Source: Candidatus Micrarchaeota archaeon
Lineage (GTDB): Archaea; Micrarchaeota; Micrarchaeia; Anstonellales; Bilamarchaeaceae
Assembly: GCA_043816005.1 (NCBI GenBank)
Contig: JBDRIM010000054.1
Coordinates: 1-47,341 of the forward strand
DNA length: 47,341 bases
Direction: 5' to 3'
Shown here: positions 13,868 to 19,816 of the stretch, piece after piece
How positions within the stretch are numbered: the stretch's first letter is position 1
How the letters are laid out: each line of letters begins with the position of its first letter
Program-made: the position numbers and the translations under genes
Notes under the pieces: generated by a model
What the model saw: only the letters and a program-made list of their open reading frames with translations
Database searches by the model: none
What the model was told of the DNA's origin: nothing

Positions 13868-14572
13868 TTAGACTGATATATGAAGTAATGAACCAACAAT
13901 ATAACCTGCAAGTGCTGCAGCACCACCAATTAGCATAAGTTCCATACCACCATGAAACCATTTACCAGAAGTTTGATGACTTTTGTATGCACCAAATAGA
14001 AAGAGCAGAGCAAGAGAAATTACTAAAGCGATCAAAATAGAAAGAGAAACTGGGAAAAAGAAAAACGGAGCTAGTGGAATAATAGAACCAATAATAGCGC
14101 TTACACCTACTAATATTCCTTGCTTCAATGGACTCATTCCTTCGCGAGGATCTTCAAGACGAAGCTCTTCACGCATCATTGTTTCAAGCCAGACTTTTTT
14201 ATTTGAGCATATTTTGTCAACTACCTGGTCGAGTAATTTGCCGGTGAACCCCTTATCACGATATATTTGAACAATTTCTTCTCTCTCACGATCAGAAAGA
14301 TGTTCCATTTCATATATTTCGCGTTTTACTTCTGCTTCATAGTGTTCCAATTCTGCTCTTGAAGCAGTATATGCAACAGCAGCCATGCTTACACTTTCTG
14401 CAAATGCAGCTGCAAGTCCTGCAAGAATAACAATAGAAGTTGAATTAGTTGCAACTGCAATGCCAAGTATTATTCCAAGCACATTGACAAGGCCATCCTG
14501 ACCTCCAAGAATAATATTTCTGAAAAAAGCACCCTGATTAATGCGGTGTTGTTCAACGTGCGGCGTGATCAT
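13868..14572 (-). CDS. VIT1/CCC1 family Fe/Mn transporter
   Basis: RNIILGGQDGLV, AESVSMAAVAY, EREEIVQIYRDKG, MMREEL, five TM helices. Confidence 0.92.
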   Translation of the reverse strand: MITPHVEQHRINQGAFFRNIILGGQDGLVNVLGIILGIAVATNSTSIVILAGLAAAFAESVSMAAVAYTASRAELEHYEAEVKREIYEMEHLSDREREEIVQIYRDKGFTGKLLDQVVDKICSNKKVWLETMMREELRLEDPREGMSPLKQGILVGVSAIIGSIIPLAPFFFFPVSLSILIALVISLALLFLFGAYKSHQTSGKWFHGGMELMLIGGAAALAGYIVGSLLHISV

Positions 14573-14628
14573 AGACAATTCTTGGTCATATACTTAATAA
14601 CTCTTTCTTATCTAAGTAAACCCTCAAT

Positions 14629-15034
14629 GGGCTCGTAGCTCAGCCAACCTTTTTGGAGAAAAGGTTGGACCAAAAACTTTTTGTAAATTGGTCCAGTCTT
14701 CCTATCAAAAAGGTCGGAGCAACAGATGTGTTATGAATATTATAACATGGCTGAACAGAGCGCTCCGTTCGCATTTCGTGATTGGCTTGTCCAATCTATG
14801 TTCGTAATCGCTGATTACAACACCCATACAACTAGAAATAGTTTTTTTGGGGGAATGAAAATCGGAGAGGCCGGGGGTGCGAGTGTGCCTTTTGGAAAAC
14901 AACAATGTCGTAAGCGACATTGTGCCCCATTGTTCGAAGAACAATAGGGAGGCACCCCAAAACTTATTGTTGAAACGCCTTCTGCGTTTTTGGGGTATTT
15001 CAAACAAAAAGCGCCGTAATTCCCCCCGAGTCCA
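14629..15034 (+). tRNA. tRNA-Ala(CGC) interrupted in the D loop, anticodon loop (37/38, 14774-14861) and T loop (59/60, 14884-15020)
   Basis: Acceptor GGGCTCG/CGAGTCC-A with G3:U70; D stem GCTC/GAGC; anticodon arm CTCCG-TTCGCAT-CGGAG; T stem GGGGG/CCCCC; BHB motifs at two junctions. Confidence 0.88.
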
Positions 15035-15227
15035 TGAGTGAAATGAATGGACTGTATTGAACGTATCGACGTTCAATAACAAGTCCATAATTCTTTCTTT
15101 TTTATTTCCACCATTAGTTTAATCTCAGGAATTATGGACGGGAAGTGAAATCGCAATTTCACAACGAATCCATTTTATGAAATAAAATGGACGATCTTGA
15201 ACGTATCGACGTTCAAGTGGAAGTCCA
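15029..15227. repeat. Stacked hairpin elements duplicating the tRNA 3' end
   Basis: agtcca at 15029, 15082, 15222; ttgaacgtatcgacgttcaa hairpin present twice. Confidence 0.8.
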
Positions 15228-15245
15228 ATTTTTTATATTTTTTAA

Positions 15246-16901
15246 TTATATTCCTGGAAGGCTAAAACTAGTGTGTGCATCTCTATCCATTGCCCAGACT
15301 TCTGCTCTATGAGCTAGACATCGATCGATTTCGGCTTTTTTTCTATTATACCTAGCTGCTGCAGCACCAGAGTCATTTCCAGCAGCCAATTCAGCACTTA
15401 AACGATCTGCATAATTCATGATAAATCTAGCATAACGCAAAAGTGCATATGATTCTCTTGTTGTTAAATTATATTCTTCCATTAATCTAGTTCTATCATA
15501 TTCAGATATATCGATCACTCTTCCTGAATCTGATAATAATGGTATAAATTGATCAAGGGCATTTTGAAGTGTGATGAGTCTTCCATGTACTGCAGATGGA
15601 TCAGAGGTTAGTTGTGTATCTGGTAGAGAAGCAGATGAGGGTAATTTGCGTCCATTTGAACATATTTTTTGCAGTACGTCTGCTATATCAGAATAACGTT
15701 CCTCTCTCATAAGACGAAAAACTCTTCTAAGACCAGTATTTAGTTCGTACAATTGACTATCTGGATCAGTATGCAAACCACTGATTCGCTTTCGCGTACT
15801 CCCTTCGAGTGGATCAAACATCATAGTATTTCTAAGACCTAGCGTTACGCCTTTTTTTCTGCGAGTAGCAGCCAACTTATCTGCAAAAGAAGAATATTCT
15901 AGAATGGGAGTAAGTAACCAAAAGTTATCATCACTTGGAAGTGTACCTTTTATCGGTGCACCAACAGAATTTATCCCAGGTGTAAATGGTTGGAAATATT
16001 TGATAAACAATCCTTCATCAGTAACTGCAACGCAACAAAGATGAGTGCGGCATGCAACAACAAAGTTTAGATGGAATCCATATGCTCCTTCTTTTGAATC
16101 GCCAGACCACCAAAACGCAACCAGTGAATTAGGTTTATCATCAATAAGAGCAAGTTTTATTGTTCCTTCCAACATTGCATCTTGAATAAGTTGTTCTGCA
16201 TTTGTAATAATTGAAGACGCAATCCTGGATTCCCGATCATTACAAACAACAGCATTAATACCTAATTGGCTAAGGTGATGGGCAGGTGAATCTGCAGAAA
16301 GAGAGAGAACAATCGGTTTTTGAGTTTGAGCATATACTAAATCAATAGCACGTTGTATTTTCCAATGAAGATTTTGAATGTGTTCACTATGTTTATTTTC
16401 TCCTTTCCAAAAAATATTATGAGTATCTCCTGACTGATCGGTACATTGCACATAACCAGCAAACCTACGCCAACTTTCTTGTGATTTAGAACGATATGCA
16501 AAGACCAATTTAGTTTCGCCATCTGATCGAACATAAACTGGAACCACAGAATATCCAATATTTATTGGACTTCCTATTCCAACAACTCCACCATCTACTT
16601 CGACAAGTTCTCGTACCTTAAATACTTCTGGATTTGATTTAATAACTGTAGCAATATGACCATCATGTCTTTCAAATAATGTTCTTGCAATTTCTTGGTC
16701 TTTGGGTTTTAATGTACTCAAAACTGCAGTTTTATCAAAATGAGTTGATGTTTCTGGAATCTCCCCTACTTTCATTATTTTCTGTGTCAATAGTATTGAC
16801 TCTGGTTTAAGTTTTTCAATAGTTAAACCATAACGACGTCTCATTCCATCTTTTATTCTAGGCATATCGACATATTTTGGATGGATATTTGATGGTCTCA
16901 T
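15246..16901 (-). CDS. Hypothetical protein
   Basis: 551-aa ORF with own TATA promoter; no recognised family. Confidence 0.75.
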   Translation of the reverse strand: MRPSNIHPKYVDMPRIKDGMRRRYGLTIEKLKPESILLTQKIMKVGEIPETSTHFDKTAVLSTLKPKDQEIARTLFERHDGHIATVIKSNPEVFKVRELVEVDGGVVGIGSPINIGYSVVPVYVRSDGETKLVFAYRSKSQESWRRFAGYVQCTDQSGDTHNIFWKGENKHSEHIQNLHWKIQRAIDLVYAQTQKPIVLSLSADSPAHHLSQLGINAVVCNDRESRIASSIITNAEQLIQDAMLEGTIKLALIDDKPNSLVAFWWSGDSKEGAYGFHLNFVVACRTHLCCVAVTDEGLFIKYFQPFTPGINSVGAPIKGTLPSDDNFWLLTPILEYSSFADKLAATRRKKGVTLGLRNTMMFDPLEGSTRKRISGLHTDPDSQLYELNTGLRRVFRLMREERYSDIADVLQKICSNGRKLPSSASLPDTQLTSDPSAVHGRLITLQNALDQFIPLLSDSGRVIDISEYDRTRLMEEYNLTTRESYALLRYARFIMNYADRLSAELAAGNDSGAAAARYNRKKAEIDRCLAHRAEVWAMDRDAHTSFSLPGI

Positions 16902-17018: not shown

Positions 17019-18107
17019 ATGTTACCTAATATCTACAAAGGAAATTACAAGCTACTAGCAATATTCCCGCTTGCATTGATTTTGATATCATTGTACTTCA
17101 TACCAACAATAAAACTTGGTGTGGACTTTCAGGGAGGTACACTGATAACTTTATCACTAAAAGAAAGCGTCAACCCAGAGGAATTGCAAACACAACTGAA
17201 TGAAGAAGGGCTTGAAGCAACAGTAAGAGTTTTTGAAACAGCCGTAGGTCCAAGAGCAGAAATAGAAGTCCCACAAAGCCAAAATCTTATAGATGCTGAC
17301 GACCTAAGAAACCAATTTAATATCCTACTTCCTGAAGTAACACAACTTGAAGTTGCGAATTATCAGAATGCAACATTTGATGCTAAATACCAAGCAAAAA
17401 AAGCAGAACTTGAAACAATTGCAGATCAGATGTTTGAACTTACTGGCAACGATCGTAGTATGATGAATATAACAAGCACAAATGAATTACAACAAGCATT
17501 TGCACAATCATATTCAGATATTTACAAAAAATATCAACAATCAATATCAGAACCAATAAACAAATATGTGCAGTATGATTCTATATCTGTGCAGACTGTA
17601 AGTCCTGCACTTACAACACATTTCATCGAGGTTGCCACAAATGTGGTTATATTGGCAGTGATATTGAGTTTTATATTGGTATTTGTATTTTTCAGAACAG
17701 TCGCACCAAGTATTGCAGTACTTCTTGGTGCAGTAAGTGACATTGTAATTGCACTTGGTGCAATGGGATTTTTGGGGATACCATTGACTCTTGCTTCTTT
17801 TGCAGCATTGCTTATGCTTTTAGGTTTCTCTCTTGATACAGACATATTACTAACAACAAGAATGCTCAAAAGAAAAGGAGACCCAAGAGAAAATGCATTT
17901 GATGCAATGAAAACAGGAATGACAATGAGTGTGATGGCGATAATTGCTTTCCTTGCATTGTTCATCCTTGCAACACTCACTCACATACCAACGTATTATG
18001 AGATATCTGCAGTTGCACTTGCAGGTTTGGTTGGTGATCTTTTTGCAACATGGGGAATTAACGGTGTAATAATTCTTCATTATGTAGAAAACAGGAGGCG
18101 AGTCTAA
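17019..18107 (+). CDS. secF: Protein translocase subunit SecF
   Basis: LGVDFQGGT, extracytoplasmic domain, LLMLLGFSLDTDILLTTR, five C-terminal TMs. Confidence 0.92.
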   Translation: MLPNIYKGNYKLLAIFPLALILISLYFIPTIKLGVDFQGGTLITLSLKESVNPEELQTQLNEEGLEATVRVFETAVGPRAEIEVPQSQNLIDADDLRNQFNILLPEVTQLEVANYQNATFDAKYQAKKAELETIADQMFELTGNDRSMMNITSTNELQQAFAQSYSDIYKKYQQSISEPINKYVQYDSISVQTVSPALTTHFIEVATNVVILAVILSFILVFVFFRTVAPSIAVLLGAVSDIVIALGAMGFLGIPLTLASFAALLMLLGFSLDTDILLTTRMLKRKGDPRENAFDAMKTGMTMSVMAIIAFLALFILATLTHIPTYYEISAVALAGLVGDLFATWGINGVIILHYVENRRRV

Positions 18108-19816
18108 TGGATTTCTATAAAGACAATCACTTCATTTTTCTTGTGTTCATGTTCCTCGTATTTGCAGCAACCATAACATTCTATGCAGGATGGCTGCTCA
18201 TAATTGCACTCGTGTTTTTTGGTGCCACCTCTCTTATGTGGAAAGAACCCCACATAAAATTATCAGGTATGGTTTTACTTGTGATACTTGCTCTCCTAAG
18301 CATATATGTCCATGGAATGACTTTTGGTATTGATTTTGTAGGTGGTACGCGCATCCCAGTTGTTCTTGACCACCCAGTTGATCAACAGACAATGAATGAA
18401 ATGGTTAACACAATAAAAAGCAGGGCTAACACTCTTGGTCTTAAGGAGATCAAAGCACGTGCTGTTGGTGACAGTATCATCAATGTTGAAGTTGCTAGTA
18501 GTGATGAGGCAACCATAGATTATATAGAGAAAACACTTTCGCAACAGGGTGTTTATCTTGGTGTTGTTGATGGTAAAGTTGCAGTTAGCGGAGATCATAT
18601 TTTTAGAACATCGATAAGAGCACTTCCTCCAAATGAACTCCTTCAGCAGGGAGGAGCAGACTGGGGAGTTGGTTTTTCAGTTGATAGGGAGGGAGGAGAT
18701 ATATTTGCCAATGCTGCAACCGGCAAGGCTGATTATCCAGTTTATATGTTTATAGATAGACCAACTAATGCGATATTGGTCTATGATAAGGAAACATTCA
18801 AAAATTACATTCTTCAAGATGCAGGAGAAAAAGAATCAATGAAGGCATTGGAAAAGATGCTGGAACTTGAAAACAATGATATTCTGGTTTATGTGGTTGA
18901 TGAAATTCCTGCAAACTTGACTCCAAAAACAAATGATACAAAAGTCATAGTATCAGAAGGATTATCAGCAGATGCAAAAGAAAATCTTACCAAACTTGGT
19001 TTTGATATTGTAGAATTTCCTGAAGAAAAAATAAAACCAGAATTCATGAGATCAAAAACAGGTGTTCTTGTTGTTAACAAACTTGAAGCAATTGGATTAC
19101 TTACTGCGCCTCTTCTGAGTGGAGGAGTTACAAATGGAGTACCAAATTATAATTATATTATTACTGGAAGTGTAGATATAACAGACAACAAACTTCGAAA
19201 CCAGGAAGCTCTTGTACGTGTCAAAAGCATTGAATCAATACTCAAAGGCGGTGCCCTCCCAGTCCAAATTTCATTAGGTTCAAGAACAACCCTTCCAGCT
19301 TCTCTTGGGAGTGAATTCTTGAAACTAAGTTTAATTGCAATTGGTGGTTCACTTGTTGCTATAGCGATATTAATTGGTATCCGCTACAGAAATATACGTG
19401 CAACTTTGCCGATAATACTCATCAGTTTTGCAGAACTTATAATTCTTCTTGCCATACTTGGTTCCTTTACAATAGATCTTGCGGCAATGGCAGGTATCAT
19501 AGCTGCAATTGGTGTTGGTGTTGATGCTCAAATTGTTATTACAGATGAATTATTGAAAAAAGATGACCGTAAGGTTTCGGAAAAAGTCGAACTTGCATTC
19601 GGAATAATAAAAACAAATGCAATTGTAGTTGTGTTTTCAATGATACCCCTTTTATTTTCAGGATTAGTTGAAGTAATTGGATTTGCAATGTCAACAATGC
19701 TTGGTGCAGTGTTAGGATATCTTCTTACTAGACCAGCATATGCAGCATTAGTAGAAAAGGTATTGGAAGCAGAGAAAAAAGGACATGAACATAAGCATGG
19801 TCATCCAATTGCCTAA
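18107..19816 (+). CDS. secD: Protein translocase subunit SecD
   Basis: FGIDFVGGTRI, LKGGALPV, SLGSEF, IDLAAMAGIIAAIGVGVDAQIVITDE. Confidence 0.92.
   Translation: MDFYKDNHFIFLVFMFLVFAATITFYAGWLLIIALVFFGATSLMWKEPHIKLSGMVLLVILALLSIYVHGMTFGIDFVGGTRIPVVLDHPVDQQTMNEMVNTIKSRANTLGLKEIKARAVGDSIINVEVASSDEATIDYIEKTLSQQGVYLGVVDGKVAVSGDHIFRTSIRALPPNELLQQGGADWGVGFSVDREGGDIFANAATGKADYPVYMFIDRPTNAILVYDKETFKNYILQDAGEKESMKALEKMLELENNDILVYVVDEIPANLTPKTNDTKVIVSEGLSADAKENLTKLGFDIVEFPEEKIKPEFMRSKTGVLVVNKLEAIGLLTAPLLSGGVTNGVPNYNYIITGSVDITDNKLRNQEALVRVKSIESILKGGALPVQISLGSRTTLPASLGSEFLKLSLIAIGGSLVAIAILIGIRYRNIRATLPIILISFAELIILLAILGSFTIDLAAMAGIIAAIGVGVDAQIVITDELLKKDDRKVSEKVELAFGIIKTNAIVVVFSMIPLLFSGLVEVIGFAMSTMLGAVLGYLLTRPAYAALVEKVLEAEKKGHEHKHGHPIA

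What the first reader, a model, noticed from the sequence alone, without database searches (positions are those of the whole stretch)
14629..15034. 406-nt tRNA-Ala(CGC) with large structured insertions in all three loops
Seen: joining the exon pieces gives GGGCTCG TA GCTC AG(C/T)CGGACA GAGC G CTCCG TTCGCAT CGGAG AGGCC GGGGG TGCGAGT CCCCC CGAGTCC A, with the G3:U70 alanine determinant. The 88-nt 37/38 intron has a BHB (TTCG/TGAA helix, bulges CA|T and AA|T). The 137-nt 59/60 intron also has one (TGCG/CGTA helix, bulges AG|T and AT|T, inner GTGC/GCGC). About 107 extra nt lie in the D loop; the best reading uses a micro-exon around GG at 14716-14717, but I found only a partial BHB for the second piece and none for the first. 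Known: archaeal EndA splices BHB introns, and multi-intron tRNAs exist, usually with shorter introns. Inference: these introns were inflated by stacked hairpin elements. G at position 55 is also atypical.
Basis: partly seen in the sequence, partly recalled or inferred. Interest (0 to 1): 0.88.

Follow-up and report, generated by a model that had tools for sequence, protein, structure and literature searches.

The report
Four-intron archaeal alanine tRNA gene
This is most likely a working alanine tRNA gene of a tiny archaeon, cut into five pieces (one only three letters long) by four long introns, two of them built from a hairpin repeat that is ordinary intergenic DNA in other microbes and giant viruses, which points to where such introns may come from.

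Summary
Real gene, partly misread. Window 14629-15034 is the only tRNA-Ala(CGC) found in a Micrarchaeota genome that encodes an epsilon2 splicing endonuclease and RtcB. It has four BHB introns: 79 nt (15/16), 30 nt (19/20), 88 nt (37/38) and 137 nt (59/60). The 72-nt spliced product matches an intron-less orthologue at 70 of 72 positions. Intron 2 forms a perfect BHB only after intron 1 is removed (predicted order). G55 is not decay: it travels with A18 in 75 of 76 A18 tRNA-Ala genes and in none of 74 G18 genes. Here 35 of 40 tRNA genes carry introns (median 57 nt). 24 of 62 introns carry one hairpin-plus-tail module at the splice site, in either orientation. The same module is an intergenic repeat in bacterial, archaeal and giant-virus contigs. 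No mobilising enzyme was found and no RNA data exist. Multi-intron tRNAs and ordered splicing are known; the intron size, A18-G55 pair and repeat origin were not found in my searches. The scan earlier noted this intron element on other contigs of this genome.

The parts
14594..14600 (+). TATA-like box 29-35 nt upstream of the tRNA (inferred promoter)
   Evidence: Sequence; similar A/T boxes upstream of several orthologues; function inferred
14629..14643 (+). Exon 1, tRNA positions 1-15, with G3
   Evidence: Spliced alignment to intron-less orthologues
14644..14722 (+). Intron 1, 79 nt, at 15/16; HBh'-type BHB, helix GCUC/GAGC, bulges AG|C and AA|C
   Evidence: Helix pair probability 0.63-0.87 in the full precursor; site occupied in 8 of 29 orthologues
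14644..14677 (+). Hairpin-plus-tail module (arm, T-run, short loop, A-run, arm, CAAAAAC) starting at the 5' splice site of intron 1
   Evidence: One of 44 genome-wide hits against 0-3 in 3 shuffles; inverted repeat I9; local scores 42-47 to Val, Ser and Thr introns against a null maximum of 26
14723..14725 (+). Exon 2: 3-nt micro-exon C16-A18-G19
   Evidence: Required to give the D loop of the orthologues; recovered by two automated solvers
14726..14755 (+). Intron 2, 30 nt, at 19/20; simple hairpin, no module; its BHB helix spans the intron 1 junction
   Evidence: Helix 3/4 and cost 8.3 kcal/mol in the precursor, 4/4 and 2.6 kcal/mol after intron 1 removal; site occupied in 4 of 29 orthologues
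14756..14773 (+). Exon 3, positions 20-37, anticodon CGC at 14770-14772
14774..14861 (+). Intron 3, 88 nt, canonical 37/38; hBHBh', helix UUCG/UGAA; no recognisable module
   Evidence: 4/4 helix, inner 3 and outer 5 pairs, but not populated in the predicted ensemble (cost 5.5 kcal/mol); site occupied in 20 of 29 orthologues
14862..14883 (+). Exon 4, positions 38-59, with G55 at 14879
14884..15020 (+). Intron 4, 137 nt, at 59/60; hBHBh', helix UGCG/CGUA; module hairpin (arms 14885-14890 and 14950-14955) split by two inserted hairpins (14902-14923, 14925-14949), then a third hairpin (14955-14997)
   Evidence: Helix probability 0.79-0.86; local scores 45-55 to Val, Thr, Ser and Leu introns against a null maximum of 27, two of them antisense; site occupied in 9 of 29 orthologues
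15021..15034 (+). Exon 5, positions 60-73, U70 at 15031, discriminator A73; CCA not encoded
15046..15228 (.). Three GGAC...GTCC palindromic repeats just downstream of the gene (15046-15090, 15134-15173, 15186-15228)
   Evidence: Repeats D1, I5, I12; similar repeats follow several orthologues and tRNA-Ala(GGC) of this genome

Best explanation
This is a functional tRNA-Ala(CGC) gene. The precursor is cut at four bulge-helix-bulge motifs by the genome's epsilon2 EndA and joined by RtcB. Introns 1 and 4 are pre-folded and can go first. Intron 2 goes after intron 1, because its 4-bp helix uses C13-A14-G15 plus C16 across the first junction. Intron 3 probably goes late. The product is a 72-nt tRNA whose elbow uses A18 with G55 in place of G18 with U55. 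The introns were gained separately at four reusable sites. Introns 1 and 4 derive from a REP-like palindromic DNA module that lands beside structured-RNA sequence in either orientation. It is kept inside tRNA only where a BHB can form, and it grows by picking up more hairpins. Shown here: exon structure, BHB geometry, enzyme genes, covariation, module distribution. Inferred: splicing itself, its order, an A18-G55 contact, mobility of the module.
For: The spliced product equals an intron-less orthologue at 70 of 72 positions, and the two differences are one compensatory pair. Of 29 CGC orthologues in the genus, 4 have no intron, 13 have one, 7 two, 4 three, and only this one has four; all four sites recur singly. 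EndA: best PDB hit 4fz2, E 1.9e-133; read off that alignment it keeps the ASL Tyr/Lys and the Tyr-His-Lys triad named in PMC12397907. RtcB E 1.7e-168. Genome census: 40 genes, 35 with introns, 62 introns; helix at least 3/4 in 60 of 62, against 112 of 620 slid controls. Two other D-loop doublets with 2-nt micro-exons show the same dependence (helix 1/4 to 3/4 and 2/4 to 4/4). 18/55 states in 150 of 162 listed tRNA-Ala genes: A/G 75, G/T 70, G/C 4, A/T 1, G/G 0 (hand count). In the class sample 39 of 40 A18 genes have G55, across five families and two isotypes. Module: 33 of 44 hits in tRNA introns, 6 abutting tRNA ends; 10 sense, 7 antisense and 7 double-ended introns. The Lys(CTT) intron is the reverse complement of the Gln(CTG) intron at 38 of 44 nt. 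The module is also a 53-nt BHB insert in 23S rRNA and abuts SRP RNA in relatives. Contigs of independent DNA runs cover introns 1-2, most of intron 3 and parts of intron 4 with few differences.
Against: No transcript or cleavage data exist. The BHB of intron 3 has near-zero probability in the predicted ensemble, and that of intron 2 only 0.25 after intron 1 removal. A one-step skip (14647-14755) also has a 4/4 helix, passes ARAGORN and costs about the same as cutting intron 2 first (8.4 kcal/mol). Census boundaries were placed partly with a BHB score and seven genes were fixed by hand, so the 60 of 62 figure is partly circular. No Y1 transposase in this genome. The Y1 genes in 9 of 40 genus genomes carry other hairpins (10 loci read). 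Only 1 of 78 metagenome loci had transposase domains beside the module. Only 4 of 62 introns reach 80% full-length identity across isotypes. Introns 2 and 3 lack the module. Covariation counts come from related genomes and are not independent.
Confidence: 0.72

Rival explanations
1. Same functional four-intron gene, but introns spread between tRNA genes by gene conversion or intron transposition as in Thermoproteales. The hairpin module is simply an old intron scaffold, and its likeness to bacterial and viral repeats is convergent (A/T-run hairpins made by template switching).
For: 18 of 62 introns fall in cross-isotype pairs at 70% identity (shuffles 0). No transposase was found. The motif is short and low in complexity.
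Against: Copies occur antisense, abut tRNA 5' and 3' ends, sit in 23S rRNA, and 6 of 26 sampled sites in two relatives are outside any RNA gene found. In viral contigs 110 of 156 matches have at least 3 further complementary arm pairs that the pattern did not require.
Confidence: 0.3
2. The D-loop insert is removed as one 109-nt intron (14647-14755), giving C18-A19 in the D loop.
For: The helix CAGC/GCUG is 4/4 in the unspliced precursor, and the product passes ARAGORN.
Against: It loses G19, and no orthologue has that loop. Its helix probability is 0.08 against 0.63-0.87 for intron 1, and its cost is 8.4 against 2.8 kcal/mol.
Confidence: 0.06
3. The gene is a decaying pseudogene invaded by repeats, and GCG codons are read by tRNA-Ala(UGC).
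For: GCG is the rarest Ala codon (1025 of 16434 in long ORFs). 82% of the gene is insert.
Against: Exons are unchanged apart from one compensatory pair. All four junctions keep 4/4 helices. 35 of 40 tRNA genes here are interrupted alike.
Confidence: 0.05
4. Intron 2 has a separate origin: it is a short intron that destroys the target of a free-standing LAGLIDADG endonuclease homing into the tRNA-Ala 5' end. This is compatible with the best explanation for the other introns.
For: In G015 a 234-aa LAGLIDADG ORF ends at tRNA position 10 and the gene has a 19/20 intron. G017 and G041 have the intron plus an upstream copy of the tRNA 5' end. Three such genes lie directly upstream of tRNA genes in this genome.
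Against: No endonuclease or remnant is seen upstream of the window gene or in G011. G005 and G048 have the remnant without the intron. Cleavage sites are untested.
Confidence: 0.3

Closest known systems
Disrupted tRNA genes of ARMAN-2 (Ca. Micrarchaeum acidiphilum) and its epsilon2 EndA (PMC3239211, text parts 2-3 read; PMC12397907, passages)
   Same: Same phylum, same enzyme type with ASL and triad; non-canonical sites including 59/60; relaxed motifs cut in vitro.
   Different: The ARMAN-2 substrates described there have 13- and 25-nt introns and two T-loop introns in one gene. Here there are four introns of 30-137 nt and a 3-nt exon.
Heavily interrupted Asgard tRNA genes (bioRxiv 10.64898/2026.10.13.758758, abstract, sections 2.1, 2.2, 2.5 and discussion read; PMC11291895, passages)
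   Same: Most genes interrupted; D-arm inserts missed by standard tools; up to five per gene, so four is not a record.
   Different: Median 22-23 nt there against 57 nt here. Almost no shared intron families there, and the arrival route is called the central open problem. Here a shared module with both orientations exists.
Thermoproteales transposed and nested multi-intron tRNAs (Fujishima 2010, Sugahara 2007, Tocchini-Valentini 2009: not read, known only through passages of PMC4090602, PMC3728597 and PMC3978253)
   Same: Intron families shared across isotypes; last BHB forming only after other introns are removed.
   Different: The review gives 11-129 nt for archaeal tRNA introns; 12 of 62 here exceed 129 nt (maximum 241). 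Sharing here is modular (4 of 62 at 80% identity, against 28.3% quoted in the preprint by a different method), and copies occur antisense and outside tRNA.
REP/REPIN elements and MITEs (search listing of PMC3116915 and PMC3733652 only; PMC10664404 passages on pithovirus M1/M2; the rest recalled)
   Same: Short palindrome with co-varying arms and a fixed tail, single or as inverted doublets, many copies, intergenic in other organisms.
   Different: No RAYT/Y1 partner and no target duplication found. Here about three quarters of copies lie inside tRNA genes as spliceable introns. Identity with pithovirus M1/M2 was not tested (their sequences are in a figure).

Membership tests
Archaeal BHB intron-containing tRNA gene | Joined exons form a cloverleaf matching orthologues | tested here: met
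Archaeal BHB intron-containing tRNA gene | BHB or relaxed BHB at each junction | tested here: met
   4/4 helices at all four, intron 2 after intron 1 removal
Archaeal BHB intron-containing tRNA gene | Broad-specificity EndA and ligase in the genome | tested here: met
Archaeal BHB intron-containing tRNA gene | Splicing shown in RNA or in vitro | not testable with these tools
   No RNA holder listed
tRNA-Ala | G3:U70, A73, NGC anticodon | tested here: met
Canonical tRNA elbow | G18 and U55 (recalled consensus) | tested here: not met
   A18 and G55, covarying; the other tRNAs of this genome keep GG and a pyrimidine at 55, except Ala(UGC)
Ordered (dependent) multi-intron splicing | One BHB forms only after another intron is removed | tested here: inconclusive
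   Predicted by sequence and folding; a 3/4 helix exists beforehand; not shown biochemically
REP/REPIN element (the intron module) | Multicopy palindrome with compensating arms, singlets and inverted doublets | tested here: met
REP/REPIN element (the intron module) | Cognate Y1 (RAYT) transposase flanked by the repeat | tested here: not met
MITE (the intron module) | Terminal inverted repeats | tested here: inconclusive
   7 of 62 introns double-ended under the strict rule, 16 under a relaxed rule; most are single-ended
MITE (the intron module) | Target-site duplication | tested here: not met
   None at the four window junctions or, by eye, in census introns; one 6-nt repeat at the 23S rRNA insert
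Group I, group II or guide-RNA-bearing intron | Match to a curated RNA family | tested here: not met
   No Rfam match at gathering score; only chance hairpin hits

The most novel reading that the evidence does not exclude
A short REP-like palindrome that lives between genes in bacteria, methanogen-like archaea and giant viruses has become the main source of tRNA (and some rRNA) introns in one Micrarchaeota lineage. It inserts at DNA level in either orientation next to structured-RNA sequence, is rescued by the relaxed epsilon2 endonuclease, and stacks until a 72-nt tRNA is spread over 406 nt with a 3-nt exon. The same tRNA carries a natural A18-G55 replacement of the near-universal G18-U55 elbow pair.
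Probability: 0.45. Interest if true: 0.83.

Novelty: new variant of a known kind. Interest (0 to 1): 0.66.

Why it matters
How intron DNA enters archaeal tRNA genes is called the central open problem in a 2026 preprint. This lineage offers a named candidate donor, both insertion orientations, and orthologues with and without each intron, so the route can be tested. The gene is also a compact substrate for ordered splicing around a 3-nt exon. The A18/G55 covariation is a natural double change at the tRNA elbow that can be tested with a four-way mutant set. Practically, ARAGORN without introns finds 5 of at least 40 tRNA genes in this genome, so tRNA counts for such genomes are badly low.

Tried and rejected
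GG micro-exon: passes ARAGORN only with a distorted D arm and matches no orthologue. Nested sub-introns proposed by the first solver: over-fitting from a positive BHB bonus, discarded; the stricter solver was hand-corrected for seven genes. ARAGORN at lowered threshold gave noise. The 127-aa antisense ORF 14705-15088 has no Pfam match and is taken as spurious. Y1/RAYT as mobiliser: not supported. Flanking ORFs of metagenome copies: 140 of 187 were scanned (left out: two loci labelled human gut and the 39 short loci); one locus had IS605/IS1595 domains. Reverse splicing alone: a reverse transcriptase exists, but antisense and flanking copies argue against it. Plasmid BLAST of intron 1: chance hits only. 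No RNA holder listed; laid DNA contigs showed no joint skipping an intron, and no piece spans the whole gene. No SRP or 23S gene found in this 86% complete assembly, and no Rfam family beside three non-tRNA copies. One search used a mis-spaced pattern, missed known positives and is void; one search replaced it. The sigma-70 scan is not informative for an archaeon. Literature searches that did not find these introns, the module or an A18-G55 pair. The library lacks most subscription papers, including tRNA sequence surveys, so A18-G55 may be in print. The preprint's supplementary tables were not seen and may hold equally short exons or long introns. A Geobacter repeat paper (PMC2700814, passages) mentions repeats shared with many genomes, but I did not open its supplement.

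Full report
Observation. ARAGORN and Rfam find nothing in the window. The precursor is strongly structured (z -6.7). The genome is 1.26 Mb, 86% complete and 5.5% contaminated. The closest EndA relatives are in Micrarchaeota records, some labelled Bilamarchaeum or Bilamarchaeaceae. The 391-aa EndA matches the ARMAN-2 epsilon2 enzyme (E 1.9e-133). Reading that alignment against the residues named in PMC12397907 (passages), it keeps the ASL Tyr and Lys and the catalytic Tyr, His and Lys. RtcB is present.

Exon structure. A DNA search of 41 genomes and a pattern search of the 40-genome genus gave orthologues; 32 Ala loci were aligned, 29 of them CGC. Intron-less copies have a 7-nt D loop, A14-G15-C16-A18-G19-C20-A21, and G55. 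This fixes the window gene as five exons (15, 3, 18, 22, 14 nt) and four introns (79, 30, 88, 137 nt; 334 of 406 nt). The spliced 72-mer differs from an intron-less orthologue only in the compensatory pair 6-67 and is called tRNA-Ala(cgc) by ARAGORN. Among the 29 orthologues (one cut at a contig end), 4 have no intron, 13 one, 7 two, 4 three, and only this gene four. Sites used: 37/38 in 20, 59/60 in 9, 15/16 in 8, 19/20 in 4, 18/19 in 1, 58/59 in 1. No other copy of exons 3-5 is in the assembly. DNA contigs from other runs cover introns 1 and 2, most of intron 3 and parts of intron 4, so the inserts are not an assembly artefact; none spans the whole gene.

Splicing path (predicted). In the full precursor the helices of introns 1 and 4 are populated (0.63-0.87 and 0.79-0.86). 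Intron 2's helix is 3/4 and unpopulated; forcing it costs 8.3 kcal/mol, which falls to 2.6 once intron 1 is removed and C13-A14-G15 meets C16. Two relatives have 15/16 plus 18/19 doublets around a 2-nt exon with the same dependence. Against a clean picture: intron 3's helix is not populated in the model (cost 5.5), and a one-step skip with a 4/4 helix exists (probability 0.08) that would lose G19. Dependent BHB formation is known in archaea (passages of PMC3728597 and PMC3978253).

A18 and G55. A pattern search over 176 genomes of the order returned 162 intron-less tRNA-Ala genes, of which 150 were listed. By hand count: A18/G55 75, G18/T55 70, G18/C55 4, A18/T55 1, G18/G55 0. Some genomes hold both types, including this one, whose tRNA-Ala(GGC) is G18/T55. 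In 201 genomes of the class, 39 of 40 A18 genes had G55: 37 Ala and 2 Thr(GGT), in five families with different stems; the exception is a Thr(CGT). Kin are not independent, but recurrence across families and isotypes suggests a compensatory elbow contact (inference). Three searches did not find it described, within the limits of the library.

Genome context. Spliced alignment with templates from two relatives and refinement (seven genes fixed by hand) gave 40 complete tRNA genes, all accepted by ARAGORN after in-silico splicing. 35 have introns: 62 in all, median 57 nt, maximum 241, 12 longer than the 129-nt upper bound in a 2014 review (PMC4090602, passage). The window gene is the longest; tRNA-Trp also has four introns. 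Three of the five intron-less genes duplicate anticodons and may be contamination. Four introns is not a record: Asgard genes reach five, with a median near 22 nt (bioRxiv 2026.10.13.758758).

What the introns are made of. A module (variable arm, T-run, 2-4-nt loop, A-run, complementary arm, then a CAAAA tail) gave 44 hits against 0-3 in three shuffles. After inspection, 33 lie in tRNA introns, 6 abut tRNA ends, 4 are elsewhere intergenic and 1 is in a gene; two hairpins are counted on both strands. Under the strict rule 24 of 62 introns carry it (10 sense, 7 antisense, 7 both), with the hairpin 0-7 nt from a splice site and the tail pointing inward. Intron 1 starts with it. Intron 4 starts with it, split by two extra hairpins shared with other introns in both orientations. 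Introns 2 and 3 show no significant match. A looser pattern hits 20 of 22 genus genomes but few distant families. Of 26 listed sites in two relatives, 17 are in tRNA introns, 1 abuts a tRNA, 1 is a BHB insert in 23S rRNA, 1 abuts SRP RNA and 6 are elsewhere (two assigned by eye or position). Of 119 metagenome loci, 4 are in tRNA introns, 2 abut tRNAs and the rest show no tRNA. Their neighbours include CodY, SASP, MreB, CofC/CofH, chaperonin and large-virus capsid and A32 genes. So the module works like a REP element, but fails the membership test for a cognate transposase. Homology across domains is inferred from a short motif and could be convergence.

Intron 2. It belongs to a short, module-free class at 19/20. 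One orthologue with it has a LAGLIDADG ORF running into the tRNA 5' end, and two have remnants of a duplicated 5' end. This gene has neither, so a homing origin is a lead only.

Verdict. A real, probably functional gene (about 0.9). Order intron 1 before intron 2: about 0.7. Mobile-repeat origin of introns 1 and 4: about 0.5. It is a member of the archaeal BHB multi-intron tRNA class and a new variant in intron size, micro-exon, elbow and intron source.

Noticed in passing
G000:C64:76246-76484 (-): tRNA-Trp(CCA) also has four introns (15/16, 30/31, 37/38, T loop), with a free-standing LAGLIDADG gene directly upstream.
   Followed up: partly
G000:C13:1-160 (-): Pro tRNA cut by the contig end, with two T-arm introns like ARMAN-2 tRNA-Pro(GGG).
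   Followed up: no
L212:496-548 (G049:C4): 53-nt module insert with a CATG/CATG BHB helix in 23S rRNA; a short direct repeat at its ends would create the helix by itself.
   Followed up: partly
L171 (G045) and L182 (G049): tRNA-Ala genes with 15/16 plus 18/19 introns around a 2-nt exon; the G045 gene is 411 nt long.
   Followed up: partly
L021:707-1411 (G015): LAGLIDADG ORF inserted between the VIT1 gene and tRNA-Ala(CGC), ending at tRNA position 10; G005, G017, G041 and G048 have a duplicated tRNA 5' end upstream.
   Followed up: partly
G000:C80:20162-20400 (-): tRNA-His has a duplicated 5' end upstream and module copies abutting both ends.
   Followed up: no
G000 C8/C66, C72/C73, C43/C56, C36/C41, C15/C22: Five anticodons occur twice with different sequences (Phe, Val GAC, Ser GCT, Lys TTT, Thr TGT), suggesting contamination or mobile DNA in the bin.
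   Followed up: no
window 14658: Contigs from two runs read A instead of G here, which would perfect the module hairpin of intron 1 (low depth).
   Followed up: no
window 13868-14578 (-) and 17019-19816 (+): VIT1-family gene divergent from the tRNA, and secF/secD downstream; similar neighbours appear at several orthologous loci. A 551-aa ORF without a Pfam match (15246-16901) lies between.
   Followed up: no
L237-L364, L365-L483: The module forms tandem arrays in many giant-virus contigs, and in Firmicutes-like contigs it follows a G/C-run hairpin.
   Followed up: partly
G000:C5:14421-14663 (-): A second, shorter tRNA-endonuclease-like domain protein.
   Followed up: no
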